Virus record (IMG/VR): IMGVR_UViG_3300031772_000001
Span: 32,001-96,000 of that record
Source: a virus
DNA length: 64,000 bases
Reading direction: 5' to 3' (one strand)
Part shown: positions 8,715-29,098 of the stretch, piece by piece
Layout: each line of letters starts with the position of its first letter
How positions within the stretch are numbered: the first letter of the stretch is position 1
Position numbers and translations under genes: made by a program
Notes under the pieces: generated by a model
Told to the model about the DNA's origin: nothing
The model's database searches: none
What the model saw: only the letters and a program-made list of their open reading frames with translations

Positions 8715-8918
8715 TCAACCTATAGTGTCAAGCCGTGTTTTGGGCTTTAGCTGTTGTACGAAGTGGCGCAAATTCCGCAGTGTCCGCCACGCCTTATCCA
8801 ACAGCGTGTACCAATGATAAACTATGAATGCACGCGGGAATCCTGACCAGAAATGCCACTTACCGCAATACGGATAGTTACAGAACGATTTACTTTCAAT
8901 AATGAAACCTCTCCACAT
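8715..8918 (-). CDS. Cassette H hypothetical protein
   Basis: Only plausible ORF between junctions 8975 and 8719. Confidence 0.5.
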   Translation of the reverse strand: MWRGFIIESKSFCNYPYCGKWHFWSGFPRAFIVYHWYTLLDKAWRTLRNLRHFVQQLKPKTRLDTIG

Positions 8919-8968
8919 AAACTTCTACTTTCCGGCGCGGCCTATAAATTCAGGCTTTGCGCCATTTT

Positions 8969-9092
8969 GTACAACGTCTACGCAATGGGCGATAGTTTGC
9001 CCCTACAATTACACTGGCCTACCACGACCACATGTATGCCATCGGTGTCCTCAAAATAATGAGGGCAAATTTCGGCCCTTGCGGTGTTGGGT
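8969..9092 (-). repeat. attC-like site, cassette G
   Basis: CCCAAC-AC-CGCAA-GGG...CCC-A-TTGCG-TAGAC-GTTG with one extrahelical base. Confidence 0.8.
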
Positions 9093-9214
9093 GCCGGTTT
9101 GTCAACCACCACGCGGTTGGCCGCGCTCCAACCGATCTCCGCACTCACCATATCTATCTGATAATCACCAGGCCCTTGCGTCTTCCACCACTCACGGAAT
9201 GTCTTCGCGGCCAT
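8978..9214 (-). CDS. Cassette G hypothetical protein
   Basis: GGAGG RBS, start MAAKTF; reads into the attC-like site. Confidence 0.6.
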   Translation of the reverse strand: MAAKTFREWWKTQGPGDYQIDMVSAEIGWSAANRVVVDKPAPNTARAEICPHYFEDTDGIHVVVVGQCNCRGKLSPIA

Positions 9215-9241
9215 ATCACCTCCAAAGTTGACAAACTGGCA

Positions 9242-9367
9242 TCCCAACGTCTTGCGAAACGTGCGCCGTGCTACAGATTATAGTGGCACACCATACACGC
9301 TTCGCCGAGCGAATACCGCCCTGCACGCTCACCACAGTTCGGACATGGCGCACTTTTGCTGTTGGTT
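9242..9367 (-). repeat. attC-like site, cassette F
   Basis: CAAC-AGC-AAAA-GTGCGCC...GGCGCAC-G-TTTC-GC-AAGAC-GTTG. Confidence 0.8.
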
Positions 9368-9486
9368 GTCTGTTGAGCGAGTACAGCGGTTTTCAGAGTT
9401 TGCCATGCTTCATCCGCAAGAACGACATTACCTACATGTATAGCACAATTTTTCTCGATAGCATCAATAGCCTCGATTGGCGTCAT
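9271..9486 (-). CDS. Cassette F hypothetical protein with C-terminal zinc ribbon
   Basis: AGGAG RBS; CPNC...CMVC encoded inside the attC-like site. Confidence 0.65.
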   Translation of the reverse strand: MTPIEAIDAIEKNCAIHVGNVVLADEAWQTLKTAVLAQQTTNSKSAPCPNCGERAGRYSLGEACMVCHYNL

Positions 9487-9522
9487 GGCATACTCCTATA
9501 ATAAATTTTAGAGCGAAATTGC

Positions 9523-9582
9523 AAACAACGTTCCGGCAAATTGCCGAAGTGTGCATCACATTTTGGCATTTGCCTGTTGTGT
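9523..9582 (-). repeat. attC-like site, cassette E (60 bp)
   Basis: CAAC-A-GGCAAAT-GCC-AAAA-TGTG-ATG-CACA-CTTC-GGC-A-ATTTGCC-GGAAC-GTTG. Confidence 0.85.
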
Positions 9583-9780
9583 GCTGTTTTTTGCGCCACC
9601 GCTGCTTTCAGAGGTTGGCGGGGATGGAACGAGCATCCAATGCGTTATTTTGCAATTATACTCGCAATGGCCAGCAATAAAATCCTGTGCGTGAATAGTC
9701 TCGATACTGCCGTTGTCAAAATGAACTAATATCGGGCCATCGTAATCCGGGACAACACCTTCACCTTTTTTGTACCACAT
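9556..9780 (-). CDS. Cassette E DUF551-like protein
   Basis: AGGAGG RBS; MWYKK...ITHWMLVPSPP. Confidence 0.65.
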   Translation of the reverse strand: MWYKKGEGVVPDYDGPILVHFDNGSIETIHAQDFIAGHCEYNCKITHWMLVPSPPTSESSGGAKNSTQQANAKM

Positions 9781-9817
9781 AGCCAACCTCCTATAATTTG
9801 AAAGCGCAAAAAATTGC

Positions 9818-9950
9818 ATACAACGTTTTGCTCTATTGCGACGTGCGTGACAACCACTTGTCAACCTTATTACGGTAGCACTCCGAACAACGCGGAGATT
9901 TGGTCCGCACAAAAACGCACTCTCCGCATGGCGTAATAGCGCTGTTGGGT
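9818..9950 (-). repeat. attC-like site, cassette D
   Basis: CCCAAC-A-GCGCTATT...AATAGAGC-AAAAC-GTTG. Confidence 0.7.
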
Positions 9951-10090
9951 GCCGTGGAATGAGCATCCGCCAGATAGTGGCCACAGTCGCTGCACAAAGA
10001 ATAGTTGCTGTCCCGAACTATGCATACATCTCGCTTAATGCAATCAAGTTTTTTGTGGCCACCTATAACCTCCAAGCGAATGAATGGCAT
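9833..10090 (-). CDS. Cassette D Cys-rich hypothetical protein
   Basis: Several CxxC pairs; start uncertain. Confidence 0.45.
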   Translation of the reverse strand: MPFIRLEVIGGHKKLDCIKRDVCIVRDSNYSLCSDCGHYLADAHSTAPNSAITPCGECVFVRTKSPRCSECYRNKVDKWLSRTSQ

Positions 10091-10228
10091 CCCAACGATC
10101 CGCGCTACTGGTTCCGTTGCTCGATCTCACGCAGAAAATCACAAAACCTCATTTTTTGCGCATCAGACCGAGAAGAAGACAATGCCAGTTTGCGCACGAG
10201 AGCAATGGCATCTATAGCGCTGTTGGGT
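10090..10228 (-). repeat. attC-like site, cassette C
   Basis: CCCAAC-A-GCGCTAT...GTAGCGC-GGATC-GTTGGG. Confidence 0.7.
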
Positions 10229-10329
10229 GCCGTTGTTGACAATTCCTCCGGTTTGGAGGCGCAGCGATCGCACGAACCTGCCGGTATGCCGTGCTGACAC
10301 CACCCGTTGAGCAATACGCTATCATTCAT
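10105..10329 (-). CDS. Cassette C hypothetical protein
   Basis: GAGGAGG RBS; MNDSV..CQHG..CDRC. Confidence 0.6.
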   Translation of the reverse strand: MNDSVLLNGWCQHGIPAGSCDRCASKPEELSTTAPNSAIDAIALVRKLALSSSRSDAQKMRFCDFLREIEQRNQ

Positions 10330-10368
10330 TTTGCGCCTCCTCGGCATATCGACTTGTCAACTATGGCA

Positions 10369-10496
10369 TCCCAACGTCCGAGCAATGTACGCAGTGCTAC
10401 TGCTTGTGACAAATCGGAACTCCGGTACAGCAACAACTTTTGATAGGATACTTGCAGCTCGCATACAGAGAGCATTGCGTACTTGCTTTGTTGGTG
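10369..10496 (-). repeat. attC-like site, cassette B
   Basis: CCACCAAC-AA-AGCAA-GTACGCA...TGCGTAC-A-TTGCT-CGGAC-GTTG. Confidence 0.8.
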
Positions 10497-10609
10497 GATG
10501 TAAATCTTTCCACCATAGCGTTCTGTGCGGCATTCCAGACGTTGCTATACTTCTCCATATCTCCGCCGCCGCCAACGTTGCTCCACCACTGCTCAAATGT
10601 CATTTCCAT
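10397..10609 (-). CDS. Cassette B hypothetical protein
   Basis: TFEQWW...WNAA; Cys-rich tail inside the attC-like site. Confidence 0.6.
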   Translation of the reverse strand: MEMTFEQWWSNVGGGGDMEKYSNVWNAAQNAMVERFTSTNKASTQCSLYASCKYPIKSCCCTGVPICHKQ

Positions 10610-10643
10610 GCCGCACCTACAATTCCAAAGAAAGGTTTATTTC

Positions 10644-10721
10644 CACCAACGTTTGCGCAACAGCCGAAGCCGCTACGCCCCCTTGCTACGCTTACGCGGT
10701 TTTGGCTTTGCGCTGTTGTTT
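10644..10721 (-). repeat. attC-like site, cassette A
   Basis: CAAC-A-GCGCAA-AGCC-AAAA-CCGC...GCGG-CTTC-GGCT-G-TTGCGC-AAAC-GTTG. Confidence 0.85.
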
Positions 10722-10936
10722 GTTGTTGCCGTGCGCTCAACTGCTTTCTGCGCGGCGGCGATTTCGCTACGTAACGATTCAATAGCTTTGTCAACGCCGT
10801 GACCAAGGTTGTCCTTTAACATACTGTCGAAAAGCATAGAATACACTTGGTCGGTGATAATGTTTTCGGCGTTGACATAAGGATATCCAAACTCACGCAT
10901 ATTGCGGATAGCCGCAGAAATCAATTTATCTCGCAT
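10673..10936 (-). CDS. Cassette A hypothetical protein
   Basis: AAGGA RBS; MRDKLISAAIRNMREFGYP. Confidence 0.65.
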   Translation of the reverse strand: MRDKLISAAIRNMREFGYPYVNAENIITDQVYSMLFDSMLKDNLGHGVDKAIESLRSEIAAAQKAVERTATTNNSAKPKPRKRSKGA

Positions 10937-10987
10937 ACATTCCTTTCCGCCGCGCCTATAATATGGTCGCACGGCAATTGCAAACAA

Positions 10988-11275
10988 CTACCTCAATAAC
11001 GCACTCTCAAACCGTAGACATTTCTCTTTTTCTCTCCTTAATTCCTTTACTTCCCGAAACTTACTTGCATTATCAACCTCTAACCAAGTAACCCTCTGTT
11101 GTAACCTGTCAATCTCTTTTCTTAACCAAGCAACCGCATCCGAAGTACCATTACGCTTATTATCCTTACTCTCACTCTCATTCTCACTTGTAAGTCTTTT
11201 TGCAATTCCGAGTAACCAAGTGTTATCCCTGAGATACACACGCGAATTTACAACAACATCAATGCCCCGCACCAC
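10988..11275 (-). CDS. Hypothetical coiled-coil protein
   Basis: 95 aa; the G of its TAG stop is the G of the first cassette junction. Confidence 0.55.
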   Translation of the reverse strand: MVRGIDVVVNSRVYLRDNTWLLGIAKRLTSENESESKDNKRNGTSDAVAWLRKEIDRLQQRVTWLEVDNASKFREVKELRREKEKCLRFESALLR

Positions 11276-24869: not shown

Positions 24870-25241
24870 TATTTATCTCCCTGTTCCTATTACAACGTGA
24901 TACAATCCCCACAGAACTGTCAACACAAAAGCCAAAAAATACGAGTCATCCTTACAAACCATAGACTGAATGCCTGTGATGATCCATGACAGGATCACCA
25001 CAGACAAACCAGGATGATTTAACATCGCCCTAACAACATCAAACACCTCACTCATCCTTTTTCTTTTCAAAAACAGGAATACCCTGACAACTCATCTCGT
25101 GCTGCACTCCCTCATGCACCACATGCACCGGCCTACGCTCACCATCAGGAAATTTCAAAAAAGAAACATCCTCCTCCGGGGTGCAATCCCGTTTGCAAAA
25201 ACCACAAATTACTTCTTGCTTGGACATCAAAACCCCCTGTT

Positions 25242-25880
25242 AAATCACCATTACCATACCTGAAATCACCATACAACACCAATACTGGACTCCACATCAC
25301 ATAATTCTACTGCACATCACCACACCTTTACGTCACATGACATCACCCGACCGCACGTTACTATACCATCACCTAACTGGACAAAACCGCACGCCACTCC
25401 ACCGCACCGTCACATGACCACACCGAACGCCACTACACCATACCATAACTATACGATACCGCATAACAACTGCACCCCACCAACACTGAAATCCACTGCA
25501 ATCTACTGTACCAATACCTAACGTCACGCAAAGACACCTTATCTTCACCCAACCTGACAGTAGATAACTCCACGGAACGACACCAAACCAATACTGAACA
25601 TCACTCCAACAGACCGGACCCCACCCAACACAACTCAACCGTTACCGTACTCGACGTAACCCCACAAAACTCTACCATCACCAAATTGTACACAATCTCA
25701 CCGAACTCCACCGTCACATCATTGTACAGTAGATAACTCAACCATCACAATATCGTAACGAAACTCGATGTCACTTAACCCAACTTCACCATAACAGCAC
25801 GGAACGATACTGCACCCCACCGCACCAAACCATACCCTAACAGCACGGTATCACACCCCACGACACCCGACCATTACATT
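25242..25880 (-). ncRNA. Pentamer-periodic array (NNNGT)n punctuated by hexamers; candidate guide-RNA array
   Basis: Parses exactly into 105 pentamers and 19 hexamers (639 bp); all units end in T; 91/105 pentamers end in GT; 16/19 hexamers end in GGT; starts at the stop codon of the Cas7-like gene. Confidence 0.85.
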
Positions 25881-26583
25881 AAACTACTTTTGTCAAGGTG
25901 TAGTCATACCTTCCGTACATGCCTGAGTTACGCCACTGACCAATACCCATATACCGGGAAGAGTAATCCAGCAACGTCCTCAGCAACTCCTCGGTCAGTG
26001 TGAACCTTGGTGTCTCCAAGCACTGAATCTGACAATCAAAATGAGCACCCTCCTCAATCATCTCACTCCGCAACAGAAACACACGCGGCCCATCCTTACC
26101 TATCACACGTACTCCACGCTCCAGAAACCCAATCGGCTTATCTGTAATGAGGGGAATCCTTCTGGGATTGACATTAACTGTCCGTGTCACGTTGGCAAGA
26201 AAAGCAGTTACTTTCTCACCAACCTCAACAACATCATCACCATCACTATCATCACCCTTTTTCTTCTTCTTAGTCACCATCTTACCCGTTGCCAAACCAT
26301 TCAACGTAGACGCGGAATCCTTCAGGGCACCCTTCACAACATACGTATAGAGAAGAGGGTTCCCGTCTGCATCCCGATGAAAGCACGTAGTGCCCTTCTT
26401 CACCTCATCCGGCAACGAATCAATTTCTTCTTGAACCTGCTGCGGAGTAAGGTGTGGGTTCTCTTCCAAAATCTTCTTTATCAGATAGTCAAGGGCAATG
26501 GAATCATTGCCAGGCTGACTACCAAGAACCTGAGAATTGAACACCACACTCAAATCGTACACAGACTCTTTCAACAAAGACAT
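25879..26583 (-). CDS. Stand-alone Cas7/RAMP-like protein
   Basis: N-terminal strand plus VLG; P.L....VKGALKD (cf. RAMP P.IPGSSLKGALR); C-terminal Gly-rich loop GIGQWRNSGMYGRY. Confidence 0.75.
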   Translation of the reverse strand: MSLLKESVYDLSVVFNSQVLGSQPGNDSIALDYLIKKILEENPHLTPQQVQEEIDSLPDEVKKGTTCFHRDADGNPLLYTYVVKGALKDSASTLNGLATGKMVTKKKKKGDDSDGDDVVEVGEKVTAFLANVTRTVNVNPRRIPLITDKPIGFLERGVRVIGKDGPRVFLLRSEMIEEGAHFDCQIQCLETPRFTLTEELLRTLLDYSSRYMGIGQWRNSGMYGRYDYTLTKVV

Positions 26584-26635
26584 ACACCCATCCTTTGATT
26601 AAAGTTAAAATAACACCCATCCAATTCAGACATCC

Positions 26636-26670
26636 TTATAGTATACGTTATCCTCACCAAAAAACATCAG
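26636..26670 (-). promoter_or_regulatory. Putative second-class promoter motif shared with the SSB-like gene
   Basis: CTGATG-N12-GATAACGTATA(C/A)TATA here and at 45863-45897. Confidence 0.6.
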
Positions 26671-26690
26671 CTTGTCTTACTGCTATTAAT

Positions 26691-27278
26691 TTAGGCAACC
26701 AGAGACTCCTCAGACTCATCAACCGCCGGACCACGCACCACCACATAATCTGAAAAAATGTCCTCTATGATCTCAGCCGTAGTCCTCTTGTCATACCAGA
26801 CGTTCAATTCAGTAATACGGTTGTTGCACTCCTTGGCATCATCAATGTATTTCTTAGCCTTACTTAACGCACCACACCCCAAGGCATCAAAAACTTTCCT
26901 CAAAATCGTCGCAGCAGTGTCTTCACCATCAACAAGAACTGTGTTTTCTTTTGAATCTAAAATAAATTCATGGAAAACTCGCTTTGAAAAGACAGGCACC
27001 TCCGACTTTGGCAGCTTCCGAAGATAGTAAAATTCCCGCATCAAGCGTGGAAGATCGGCCTCCCGAACAGACTCCGGGGATAAGCTATACTCTGGCATCA
27101 CCGAATCATCACGCACGAGCTTCTGTATCATCACAAGATATACCTTGTCACCAACGGCAATCTGTGACCAAAAAGGCTTCTGATTCAGTGCCTCAAGCAC
27201 CAAATCGTCCTCAGCAATCAGCATGTACTTCTTATCATAAGACAAGAACCTCTTCTTGAACAACTCAAGATCCTGCAT
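26691..27278 (-). CDS. Hypothetical protein
   Basis: 195-aa ORF. Confidence 0.65.
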   Translation of the reverse strand: MQDLELFKKRFLSYDKKYMLIAEDDLVLEALNQKPFWSQIAVGDKVYLVMIQKLVRDDSVMPEYSLSPESVREADLPRLMREFYYLRKLPKSEVPVFSKRVFHEFILDSKENTVLVDGEDTAATILRKVFDALGCGALSKAKKYIDDAKECNNRITELNVWYDKRTTAEIIEDIFSDYVVVRGPAVDESEESLVA

Positions 27279-28083
27279 TGATTACCCCACTTCTTAGAAC
27301 ACGAATACGTTCTTCTGCTACCTGACAATACTTCTCTTCCTTCTCAATCCCAATAAAATTTCTTTTGGTATTTATACAAGCAATCGCAGTTGTTCCTGAT
27401 CCTATGCAATTATCAAGAACAACATCATTTTCATTTGTGTAAGTACGAATAAGATACTCAAACAATGCTACAGGTTTTTGGGTTGGGTGAAGCCCCGCCT
27501 CCCTCGCATGATATGCTGTTGAAAATTCTACAACAGAACGAGGATACCCGACATCAGTACCTACAGAACGAAAAACCCCTTCCGTAAATTTACCACACGT
27601 CTCAGTCATCACTGTTTTTTGTGCTGCTCTATGACTTGGCTTTACAAAAAATTGTGGGTTATATGGAGGAACACCATAACAAAAAATAAGAATATCCTCA
27701 TGCTGTCGAAGAGGACGCTTTTTTGCATTTAAGAACCCGACAGTATTAGACTTTCTCCAACACATATCATACTTAAAGTTTGAGACATTGCTCATCACTA
27801 AAGCAGAAGTAAATGGCTGTGACGCAGTTAGTACAATGACACCATTACAGATTCTCTCATACTCCTTCCATAACGGCTCAAATGGAATAACTGTGTCCCA
27901 TTTACACTGTGTAGTTCCATAAGGCAAATCACATAACACCATATCAATACTCTTATCAGGTATTAATGGCATTACCTCAAGACAATCACCATGAATTATT
28001 GTATTTATTTGCAACGCACCATCTCCCGTTAGATACTCTCCCCGGCCACGGTGAAGTTGTATTGCCAGCCCTTCTCTGTCCAC
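27265..28083 (-). CDS. Orphan N6-adenine/N4-cytosine DNA methyltransferase (beta-type order)
   Basis: GDCLE, DLPYG, HPTQKPV, VLDNCIGSGTT, FIGIE. Confidence 0.92.
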   Translation of the reverse strand: MDREGLAIQLHRGRGEYLTGDGALQINTIIHGDCLEVMPLIPDKSIDMVLCDLPYGTTQCKWDTVIPFEPLWKEYERICNGVIVLTASQPFTSALVMSNVSNFKYDMCWRKSNTVGFLNAKKRPLRQHEDILIFCYGVPPYNPQFFVKPSHRAAQKTVMTETCGKFTEGVFRSVGTDVGYPRSVVEFSTAYHAREAGLHPTQKPVALFEYLIRTYTNENDVVLDNCIGSGTTAIACINTKRNFIGIEKEEKYCQVAEERIRVLRSGVINAGS

Positions 28084-28425: not shown

Positions 28426-28911
28426 CTAAAAGAACTGTTCGTCTCCATTCTCACTACATACGATATGTTCAATCTCATCCTCCAAGTTCGGTAGGATCAT
28501 CCTGGCTTGATGACACCCATACTTGCAGAAATCACACTCCTTAATCCACTTCTCCCAATTATCTGACAGAAGAGATACAAAACTTTCTGGTGATCCCCGG
28601 TCACGAAACCGCTTGAGGAAATCTTCTTTCCTACATTCATCTGGGTACACCAGATAGAAAAATATGCAAGAGTCCAACAAAGCATCACGAACTTCCTTAT
28701 GGGAAGAAACGAAGATGAACTCGTACTTCCCAATATTCTCCTTGATGTGCTGGATATAATTCGCTGGAAAATCTGGATGACGTACTTTAAGTCCAAATTC
28801 TGTAGTCCAGCTAAACAAAGAAGAATCCGAATCCAAAGTTGTTTCATGGTGATTCTTATGATAATAGCTTTTTCCAGTACCAGGAAATGCAGATATTATT
28901 CTAGTTCTCAT
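28426..28911 (-). CDS. P-loop NTPase/kinase-like phage protein
   Basis: IISAFPGTGKS, DSDSS.F, FP.NY. Confidence 0.75.
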   Translation of the reverse strand: MRTRIISAFPGTGKSYYHKNHHETTLDSDSSLFSWTTEFGLKVRHPDFPANYIQHIKENIGKYEFIFVSSHKEVRDALLDSCIFFYLVYPDECRKEDFLKRFRDRGSPESFVSLLSDNWEKWIKECDFCKYGCHQARMILPNLEDEIEHIVCSENGDEQFF

Positions 28912-29098
28912 GTTATCTCCTTTTTCACCTTATCAAGTTCCGTCTCAAACATGTAGACATTCTTTGCTTCACCATTCAAAAAGTACCTTGTCTCGTACTG
29001 CACCCCAGACTTTGAAACCCAGACAGAAACAATGACTCCAATAGTGTCAAGCTCTTTTATTTTAACCCTCTCAAACAAATCAAATGCTGTCTCTACCC

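What the first reader, a model, noticed from the sequence alone, without database searches (positions are those of the whole stretch)
25242..26583. Stand-alone Cas7/RAMP-like gene plus a 639-bp pentamer-periodic array: candidate non-CRISPR RNA-guided system
Seen: a 234-aa ORF with RAMP hallmarks (P.L...VKGALKD and the Gly-rich loop GIGQWRNSGMYGRY). Starting at its stop codon, the sense (minus) strand parses without gaps into 5-nt units, e.g. ATGGT TTGGT GCGGT GGGGT GCAGT ATCGT TCCGT GCTGT. There are 105 pentamers and 19 hexamers; every unit ends in T and 91/105 pentamers end in GT, while the first 2-3 bases vary freely. No CRISPR repeat-spacer array and no other cas gene is present in the 64 kb. 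Known: Cas7-type RAMPs polymerise along guide RNA with a fixed nucleotide step. Inference: each subunit binds one pentamer through the constant GT, and the variable bases together spell a gapped target sequence, possibly against competing phages or host genes. This resembles my recollection of recently reported viral RAMP plus GGY/NN repeat (VIPR-type) loci, which I cannot verify here. In this array the base before GT is not fixed as G, so it may be a distinct variant.
Basis: partly seen in the sequence, partly recalled or inferred. Interest (0 to 1): 0.97.

Follow-up and report, generated by a model that had tools for sequence, protein, structure and literature searches.

The report
Phage VIPR locus, NNNGY guide array
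A 168-kb sediment phage carries a small Cas7-like protein gene followed by a 637-base array of five-letter repeats; this is a divergent member of the recently described viral VIPR RNA-guided systems, so it is real and interesting but not a new kind of system.

Summary
The minus strand of 25242-25878 parses into 104 pentamers (all end in T, 90 in GT) and 19 hexamers (16 end in GGT). The parse score is z=17 against dinucleotide shuffles, and the array is unique in the 167,660-bp phage genome. With a 118-sequence alignment the 234-aa ORF folds at pLDDT 91. Its best structural matches are all CRISPR RAMPs (Csm3 Z 13.4; type VII Cas7 E 6e-9).

The system type was published in 2026 as VIPR: a Vipr RAMP plus vrRNA pentamer repeats. 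The family profile aligns over its full length with the characterised SUSP1 Vipr clade (hhalign 92%, E 5e-7). In 71 of 73 related viral loci the only period-5 DNA lies directly downstream of the gene, on the same strand.

This subfamily differs from characterised type II in several ways:
- The repeat is NNNGY, with only G and Y fixed.
- The Asp that reads the first G in SUSP1 is Gln here.
- There is no 3' tail and no linked accessory gene.
- NNNGGY hexamers cut the array into 19 segments (2-10 units; 15 of them have 6-10).

No targets were found under any decoding rule, and no RNA data exist.

Verdict: a new member of a known kind, with an open question about its recognition code.

The parts
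25879..26583 (-). vipr-like gene: 234-aa single-domain RAMP (Cas7-like) protein
   Evidence: ORF. AlphaFold2 with alignment A2 gives pLDDT 91.1 and pTM 0.84. The Foldseek top 50 are all Cas7/Csm3/Cas7-11, best 8z4l_F at E 6.4e-9. VIA-align gives Csm3 9g9a_D Z 13.4 and 6ae2_B Z 12.6, and the top 31 are all CRISPR RAMPs. hhalign of A2 against the SUSP1-clade Vipr alignment A3 gives 92.4%, E 5.1e-7, 185 columns.
25906..25947 (-). G-loop, residues 213-226 (GIGQWRNSGMYGRY)
   Evidence: It aligns with the SUSP1 Vipr G-loop GVGDWRPRFGRF. Q216, W217 and R218 correspond to D177, W178 and R179, which contact G1, G2 and Y3 of GGY in the published structure. Across A2, Q is present in 112/118 and W in 118/118 sequences. 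In the SUSP1 clade the first position is D/E in 41/44. The PDB profile search hits type VII Cas7 (E 5e-7) and Csm4 (E 2.7e-4) on this segment.
26056..26133 (-). long beta-hairpin, residues 151-176: probable thumb
   Evidence: DSSP on the model gives strands 151-162 and 165-176. The segment contains the invariant or nearly invariant R156, L158, R159, T162, G165 and R167. Calling it the thumb is an inference from RAMP architecture; I did not inspect the model in 3D.
26218..26277 (-). Lys/Asp-rich insertion, residues 103-122
   Evidence: It is present only in the window protein and, in shorter form, in its 55%-identical relative P0002. Local pLDDT is lower, 72-75. Its function is unknown.
25242..25878 (-). 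putative vrRNA array: 104 NNNGT pentamers and 19 hexamers that define 19 hexamer-led segments of 2-10 units (15 have 6-10; 16 start NNNGGT)
   Evidence: Parse and statistics are. Segment starts on the + strand, read leftwards: 25875, 25839, 25793, 25757, 25746, 25715, 25679, 25643, 25592, 25546, 25515, 25484, 25468, 25447, 25411, 25370, 25329, 25283, 25252. There is no terminator-like site between the gene and the array, and promoter-like sites inside the array are no more frequent than in shuffles. No Rfam family matches. The same architecture is seen in relatives.

Best explanation
This is a VIPR-type (Viral Interference Programmable Repeat) locus of a complete 168-kb sediment phage. It consists of a vipr gene for a minimal Cas7-like RAMP and, starting at the gene's stop codon on the same strand, a 637-nt array that encodes guide RNA.

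Shown here:
- The protein has the RAMP fold and is a distant homologue of the characterised SUSP1 Vipr.
- The array has the form (NNNGGY)(NNNGY)n. Only G and Y are fixed, and the other three positions are close to random.
- The gene-plus-array pairing, with the same orientation, is conserved across a large viral family.

Inferred by analogy with published type II VIPR:
- The array is co-transcribed with vipr.
- One protomer binds each pentamer through the fixed G (stacked on W217) and Y (held by R218).
- The variable bases are presented for gapped base pairing with double-stranded DNA of competing mobile elements or the host, which silences transcription.

My own inferences:
- The first G of the canonical GGY is not read in this subfamily, because the Asp that reads it is Gln. 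This leaves up to three programmable bases per unit.
- The semi-conserved hexamer junctions (R-A-N-G-G-Y, followed by a pentamer whose first base is a purine) split the precursor into 19 segments. The 15 longer ones (6-10 units) could act as short guides or filaments, in place of the promoter-plus-tail units of type II.
For: - VIPR is published: a Vipr RAMP plus YNNGG vrRNAs, a 1-nt-skip code on dsDNA, seven types, and the alternative repeats NNNGG, YNNNG and NNNNG. Its structural basis is also published.
- RAMP fold.
- Homology to the SUSP1 clade: hhalign 92.4%, E 5.1e-7, over the full length. The single-sequence comparison already aligns the G-loops.
- The family is large: 2332 representatives at E<=1e-3, and at least 554 loci in IMG/VR.
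- Array periodicity is z = 17 and the array is unique in the genome.
- In all 8 loci fetched first, and in 71 of 73 IMG/VR loci, the period-5 DNA sits directly after the gene (median gap 1 nt). Only five loci show a few isolated high windows elsewhere.
- GGY outnumbers RCC on the gene-sense strand in 71 of 71 arrays.
- Logos from 187 unique blocks: G4 is 96-100%, position 5 is mostly C or T, positions 1-3 of internal pentamers carry 0.15 bit or less, and the hexamer reads R-A-N-G-G-Y.
- Among near-identical blocks, changes fall on positions 1, 2, 3 and 5 (8, 7, 12, 8) and almost never on G4 (1).
- G-loop D/E changes to Q while W and R are kept.
- Context is viral and not CRISPR.
Against: - There is no RNA evidence; no RNA run is listed for this phage.
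- No target was found for any guide under NNN+0/+1/+2/+3 or NN+1. This covers the phage itself, two large VIPR-bearing phages (one a 72% relative of this phage), 1.6 Mb of VIPR loci, and exact scans of IMG/VR, JGI metagenomes and GTDB genomes.
- The link to characterised Vipr exists only at profile-profile level. Profile-to-sequence scores are insignificant.
- There is no 3' tail and no conserved accessory gene, so processing and effector steps may differ from type II.
- The closest solved structures are RNA-targeting Cas7 proteins. Structures released after April 2026, which may include VIPR, were not in the library.
Confidence: 0.85

Rival explanations
1. Same ribonucleoprotein, different substrate. 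The Vipr-vrRNA filament binds or cleaves RNA transcripts, as type III and type VII Cas7 backbones do, rather than double-stranded DNA.
For: The best structural neighbours are Csm3, Cmr4, type VII Cas7 and Cas7-11, all of them RNA-targeting backbones. No DNA-binding accessory gene is linked.
Against: The only characterised VIPRs bind dsDNA, on either strand. Fold similarity to Csm3 reflects the shared RAMP core and does not indicate the substrate. I did not examine a catalytic residue.
Confidence: 0.08
2. The array is one long scaffold, sponge or decoy RNA coated by the protein, not a set of programmable guides. The 'variable' positions would then be unconstrained spacer bases.
For: No targets were found. 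There are no tails and no internal promoters. Satellite-encoded decoy vrRNAs exist in the literature.
Against: Positions 1-3 are close to equiprobable in a 41.5% GC genome (the array itself is G/T-rich) and turn over between near-identical arrays while G4 stays fixed. Block contents are almost entirely different between related phages. The characterised family is guide-based.
Confidence: 0.05
3. The periodic DNA acts as DNA, for example as protein-binding iterons, a curved or structural region, or a recombination hot spot. Its position next to the RAMP gene would then be incidental.
For: There is no direct evidence of transcription. In one metagenome the abundant strain's contigs break on both sides of the array interior, so the region varies between strains.
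Against: Position and strand relative to the RAMP gene are constant in 71 of 73 loci across proteins that share only about 30% identity. No period-5 array occurs elsewhere in the genome. RAMPs bind RNA.
Confidence: 0.02

Closest known systems
Type II VIPR of Escherichia phage SUSP1 and the Pseudomonas fulva prophage (bioRxiv 10.64898/2026.04.26.720920 and 10.64898/2026.04.26.720927)
   Same: Both have a small single-RRM RAMP with a G-loop, encoded in a phage, and a same-strand pentanucleotide repeat RNA locus next to the gene. In both, fixed G/Y positions alternate with hypervariable positions, and there is no CRISPR array or cas operon. The W-R pair of the G-loop is conserved.
   Different: - The repeat here is NNNGY, not NNGGY.
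- The G1-reading Asp177 is Gln.
- There are 19 abutting segments of 2-10 units separated by NNNGGY hexamers. SUSP1 has about four separate vrRNAs of 9-16 repeats in total, three of them in the downstream array, each followed by a structured 3' tail.
- No vap gene is linked.
- Protein similarity is detectable only profile to profile.
- The code and the targets are unknown here.
Non-canonical VIPR arrays: 'YNNNG', 'NNNGG' and 'NNNNG' repeats and 'staggered arrays' (10.64898/2026.04.26.720920, methods and fig. S17-S18 legends), and the 21 clusters with motifs such as WGT/NN or TGH/NN (10.64898/2026.10.21.760802)
   Same: T-NNN-G is the same repeat as NNNGT read in another register. The arrays lie next to Vipr-like folds. 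[quoted passage not shown]
   Different: I could not see the figures, so I cannot say whether this subfamily is one of the seven types, or whether the hexamer punctuation is what they call staggering (they describe a 1-nt overlap; here there is one extra nt). The second paper models all units as XYZ/NN with about 10 repeats. Here position X is fully degenerate and segments are shorter.
CRISPR class 1 backbone RAMPs (Csm3/Cmr4 of type III, Cas7 of type VII, Cas7-11)
   Same: They share the fold: RRM core, G-loop and thumb-like hairpin, with Z 11-13 over about 150-175 aligned residues. By analogy they also share the principle of one subunit per fixed RNA step.
   Different: The step is 5 nt rather than 6. 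There is no crRNA repeat handle, no CRISPR array, no Cas1, no Cas10/Cas5/Cas6 partners and no Pfam RAMP match. The context is viral.

Membership tests
VIPR system (Vipr + vrRNA) | Vipr protein with RAMP architecture (RRM core, glycine-rich loop, thumb), small and single-domain | tested here: met
   The protein is 234 aa. The model has pLDDT 91. All top Foldseek and VIA matches are CRISPR RAMPs, with Csm3 at Z 13.4. The G-loop GIGQWRNSGMYGRY matches Cas7/Csm4 G-loops in the PDB profile search.
VIPR system (Vipr + vrRNA) | Sequence homology to a characterised Vipr (SUSP1 clade, which contains a marine-sediment protein that may be the seed X1U2U4) | tested here: met
   hhalign of A2 against A3 gives probability 92.4%, E 5.1e-7, 185 columns, end to end. 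Caveat: profile-to-sequence scores are not significant at database scale, so the link is remote.
VIPR system (Vipr + vrRNA) | Adjacent tandem pentanucleotide repeats with fixed positions alternating with hypervariable positions | tested here: met
   The feature is conserved in 71 of 73 related loci.
VIPR system (Vipr + vrRNA) | Canonical GGY/NN (YNNGG) repeat | tested here: not met
   The base before G-Y is degenerate: A .27, C .23, G .30, T .20 in internal pentamers. The repeat is NNNGY, equivalent to the 'YNNNG' alternative that the authors accept within VIPR. GGY occurs only at the hexamer junctions.
VIPR system (Vipr + vrRNA) | Viral or proviral location, with no CRISPR array and no cas operon | tested here: met
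   The record is a complete 167,660-bp virus with terminal repeats. There is no Cas1, no Pfam RAMP match and no repeat-spacer array.
VIPR system (Vipr + vrRNA) | Conserved structured 3' tail after each repeat tract (type II) | tested here: not met
   Segments abut one another with no intervening non-periodic sequence. No Rfam family or ribozyme matches. No terminator-like hairpin lies inside or at the end of the array.
VIPR system (Vipr + vrRNA) | Linked vipr-accessory protein (vap) | tested here: inconclusive
   Flanking ORFs have no significant Pfam or PHROG match. The upstream 195-aa ORF has its homologue 5 kb away from vipr in the related phage, and the downstream ORFs are not shared. The paper names six vap genes for seven types, which leaves room for a type without one; I did not verify this.
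VIPR system (Vipr + vrRNA) | vrRNAs are expressed and bound by Vipr; DNA is recognised by the gapped 1-nt-skip code | not testable with these tools
   No RNA run holds this phage. Computational target searches under several codes found nothing above shuffled controls.
CRISPR-Cas class 1 (Cas7 family) | RAMP encoded with a CRISPR repeat-spacer array and other cas genes | tested here: not met
   Only the fold is shared.

The most novel reading that the evidence does not exclude
This large subfamily may use a second noncontiguous code. Only G and Y of each pentamer would be sequestered, because the G1-reading Asp is replaced by Gln. Three bases per protomer would then be programmable. Short guides of 5-10 units (15-30 programmable bases) would be packed head to tail in a tail-less multiplex array whose units are delimited by an R-A-N-G-G-Y junction. 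That would imply a target periodicity different from the published 2+1, for example 3+1 or contiguous triplets, and a different way of maturing or delimiting guides.
Probability: 0.35. Interest if true: 0.7.

Novelty: new member of a known kind. Interest (0 to 1): 0.45.

Why it matters
VIPR was described only in 2026, and only type II has been worked out experimentally. This locus is a clean, complete example from a very large, uncharacterised branch: at least 554 loci in IMG/VR and 2332 protein clusters.

The branch has two fixed RNA positions instead of three, a matching Asp-to-Gln change in the base-reading loop, no tails, and 19 abutting segments (15 of them with 6-10 units). It is therefore a natural test of how flexible the VIPR code is, and of whether three bases per protomer can be read. 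If they can, guides could be shorter and multiplex arrays more compact for programmable DNA binding.

It also shows that standard tools (Pfam, PHROGs, TRF, Rfam) miss the whole system.

Tried and rejected
**Family and fold searches that gave nothing**
- Pfam and PHROGs on the protein and its neighbours: no significant family.
- Single-sequence AlphaFold2: unusable, pLDDT 37.
- megablast of the locus against GenBank phages: no match. tblastn finds only four unannotated gut phage records at about 28% identity.

**Periodicity and RNA features**
- Fourier power at period 5 in 200-nt windows was insensitive, because the hexamers break the phase. I replaced it with lag-5 identity.
- Rfam found nothing and no hammerhead.
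- Promoter-like sites are not above the shuffled level, and there is no terminator in or after the array.
- TRF does not report the array.
- RNA fold of the array gives z -2.9 with only 20 shuffles. I did not treat this as evidence of structure.

**Target search**
- Mismatch-tolerant local searches used the window's guides, 104 unique guides from relatives, and the guides of G001 and G002. The targets searched were the phage itself, G001 (156 kb, 72% nt identity over 70 kb), G002 (172 kb) and 1.6 Mb of VIPR loci, under NNN+0/+1/+2/+3 and two NN+1 registers. Nothing rose above shuffled guides. The only perfect hits were unmasked array copies under NNN+2.
- Exact gapped scans of the cleanest 8-triplet segment under NNN+1 and NNN+0 gave 0 hits in viral contigs, metagenome contigs and genome contigs.
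- Scans of a 12-unit guide of G002 under NN+1, NNN+1 and NNN+0 gave 0 hits.
- The gapped scan works: a positive control found the array's own contig and one more.
- Exact matching tolerates no mismatch, so these blanks are weak.

**Other tests**
- In-frame stop-codon depletion among the window's triplets, estimated by hand from the unit counts: about 6 stops observed against about 6 expected.
- Position-specific substitution counts do not separate N3 from N1/N2.
- No RNA holder is listed among public runs.
- Contigs of run X1 did not lay at all, and the other runs give only fragmentary cover.
- I could not read the papers' figures or supplementary tables, so the type assignment is left open.

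Full report
**What is there**

On the minus strand, ORF 25879-26583 encodes 234 aa. Immediately after its TAA stop, bases 25878-25242 read as TGT followed by 104 pentamers and 19 hexamers. Every unit ends in T. 90 of 104 pentamers end in GT and 16 of 19 hexamers end in GGT.

- The parse scores 201, against 120.4 +/- 4.7 for 300 dinucleotide-preserving shuffles (z = 17). Random windows of the same genome reach at most 100.
- T autocorrelation peaks at lags 5, 10 and 15.
- A lag-5 scan of the whole genome marks this stretch throughout; one isolated 100-nt window elsewhere just reaches the cut-off.
- Tandem Repeats Finder does not report the array, and Rfam has no match.

**Genome context**

The window is bases 32001-96000 of a 167,660-bp IMG/VR virus record with direct terminal repeats, rated complete. 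GC content is 41.5%. Its DNA occurs in sediment metagenomes. Its replication proteins are only about 31% identical to those of cultured jumbo phages, so the host is unknown.

There is no CRISPR-like repeat-spacer array in the window. Neither Cas1 nor the Pfam RAMP model matches anywhere in the genome.

**The protein is a RAMP**

Pfam and PHROGs give nothing, and a single-sequence fold failed. A word-based search found 25 relatives. A profile of them found 2332 cluster representatives at E <= 1e-3, 992 of these at E <= 1e-30.

With a 118-sequence alignment (A2), AlphaFold2 gives pLDDT 91.1 and pTM 0.84.

- Foldseek against the PDB returns only CRISPR RAMPs in the top 50. The best are type VII Cas7 (E 6e-9) and Csm3.
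- An independent all-against-representatives alignment gives Csm3 at Z 13.4 and 12.6, Cmr4, Cas7-11 and Cascade Cas7. The first 31 rows are all CRISPR RAMPs.
- A profile search of PDB sequences hits type VII Cas7 (E 5e-7) and Csm4 (E 2.7e-4) on the C-terminal glycine-rich loop.

**It is already a described kind of system**

A literature search found three 2026 preprints on VIPR. Vipr is a minimal RAMP of phages. It polymerises one protomer per pentamer on vrRNAs made of YNNGG repeats, sequesters GGY, and presents NN for pairing with dsDNA while skipping every third target base. The result is silencing of competing phages and satellites.

The methods of the first paper state that some loci have NNNGG, YNNNG or NNNNG repeats instead. 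Array architectures include 'staggered' arrays, ribozyme-interspersed arrays and single vrRNAs. A fourth preprint reports 21 clusters of non-canonical period-5 arrays next to Vipr-like folds.

**Membership**

I located the SUSP1 locus in GenBank record KT454805. The vipr gene is 28474-29061 (195 aa), flanked by NNGGT arrays with tails. The residue numbers given in the structure paper (R138, C173, D177, W178, R179) fit this protein.

- The window protein aligns with it weakly, mainly at the G-loop.
- A 44-member alignment of the SUSP1 clade (A3) aligns with A2 end to end. hhalign gives 92.4%, E 5e-7, 185 columns.
- Profile-to-sequence scores between the two groups are insignificant.

So this is a remote branch. 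I cannot tell whether it is one of the seven published types, because the figures and data files are not held.

**The gene-array pairing is conserved**

In eight loci that encode relatives with 27-55% identity, the only period-5 DNA lies directly after the gene.

Among 80 further IMG/VR loci (at least 554 exist), 73 contained my protein motif. Of these, 71 have the array directly downstream (median gap 1 nt, median length 352 nt). Only five loci show a few isolated high windows elsewhere. On the gene-sense strand GGY outnumbers RCC in 71 of 71 arrays.

**Anatomy of the arrays**

Across the family the unit is NNNGY. Y is T in the window and in its 55%-identical relative, C in the distant relatives, and mixed in intermediates.

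Every few units there is a hexamer NNNGGY, which shifts the register by one nucleotide. I defined 256 well-formed blocks (187 unique). Each is a hexamer followed by 3-11 pentamers, most often 5-6 units in all.

Logos:
- G4 is 96-100%.
- Position 5 is mostly C or T (about 0.9), with some A.
- Positions 1-3 of internal pentamers carry 0.15 bit or less.
- The hexamer reads R-A-N-G-G-Y, and the next pentamer starts with a purine in 90% of blocks.

The junction is therefore a semi-conserved signal and not just an indel.

The window has 19 such segments, 16 of them starting NNNGGT, with lengths of 11-51 nt. The segments abut directly. There is no tail, ribozyme, internal promoter above chance, or terminator.

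Among near-identical blocks from related phages, changes hit positions 1, 2, 3 and 5 (8, 7, 12, 8) and G4 only once. In one sediment run, an abundant variant strain's contigs stop on both sides of the array interior, while a minor strain identical to the window spans it. This is a weak hint that arrays turn over between strains.

**A matching change in the protein**

In the published structure G1 of GGY is read by H17 and D177, G2 stacks on W178, and Y3 is held by R179.

| Position (SUSP1 numbering) | SUSP1 clade | This subfamily |
|---|---|---|
| 177 (reads G1) | D/E in 41/44 | Q in 112/118 |
| 178 (stacks on G2) | W/Y | W in 118/118 |
| 179 (holds Y3) | R in 44/44 | R in 113/118 |

The residue that reads the first G is replaced in exactly the branch whose repeat has lost that G. 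This rests on two clades only, so it is an inference and not a statistical test.

**Mechanism proposed**

The array is co-transcribed with vipr. Protomers bind G-Y of each pentamer. The hexamer junctions delimit the guide segments. The variable bases then pair in a gapped fashion with DNA of competitors.

An information argument favours three read bases. Type II guides have 9-16 repeats x 2 = 18-32 programmable bases. Here 5-10 units x 3 = 15-30, whereas x 2 would give only 10-20. This is inference.

**What I could not establish**

No target was found. Local mismatch-tolerant searches under six decoding rules, and eleven exact gapped scans of the three public collections, gave nothing above shuffled controls. 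A positive control showed that the scan works.

The guides of the window do not target the phage itself, its 72%-identical relative G001, or G002. No RNA run is available. No accessory gene is conserved next to vipr.

**Verdict**

The system type is already known. This locus is a new member from a large, uncharacterised, divergent branch. Its recognition code and its way of delimiting guides are open and testable.

Noticed in passing
proteins P0026 (458 aa) and P0027 (432 aa): These are natural tandem fusions of two Vipr-like domains in one chain. The halves of P0026 are 36% identical (E 3e-41). This would be a two-RAMP fusion within a family described as single-domain.
   Followed up: partly
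window 25369-25638 (-); L001 5883-6005: ORFs that fall inside the arrays are probably artefacts of the G/T-rich repeat, not genes. One is 89 aa and rich in W/G/V/C here; the other is a 40-aa gene called in a public annotation.
   Followed up: no
window 24900-25176 and 25725-26673, run X4: A variant strain at about 100x depth has contigs that end on both sides of the array interior. A 12.9x contig identical to the window spans 25147-25754. This suggests strain-level replacement of array content between otherwise 96-99% identical flanks.
   Followed up: partly
L109 (IMGVR_UViG_3300033405_000004, 157 kb) 2269-2306: A second large viral contig carries exactly the same guide triplets as G002's 12-unit block, matched over eight triplets. 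Individual guides are therefore shared between phages from different samples.
   Followed up: no
window 27265-28083 (-): A 272-aa ORF with a DLPYG motif looks like a DNA methyltransferase. It lies two genes upstream of vipr. This is read from the translation only.
   Followed up: no
window 8719-10988: Earlier notes of this scan describe an integron-like cassette array with hairpins in the same phage. I did not examine it.
   Followed up: no
window 26218-26277 (-): A Lys/Asp-rich insertion (KKKKKGDDSDGDD) is found only in this Vipr and, in shorter form, in its nearest relative. Read mapping skipped it as low complexity.
   Followed up: no
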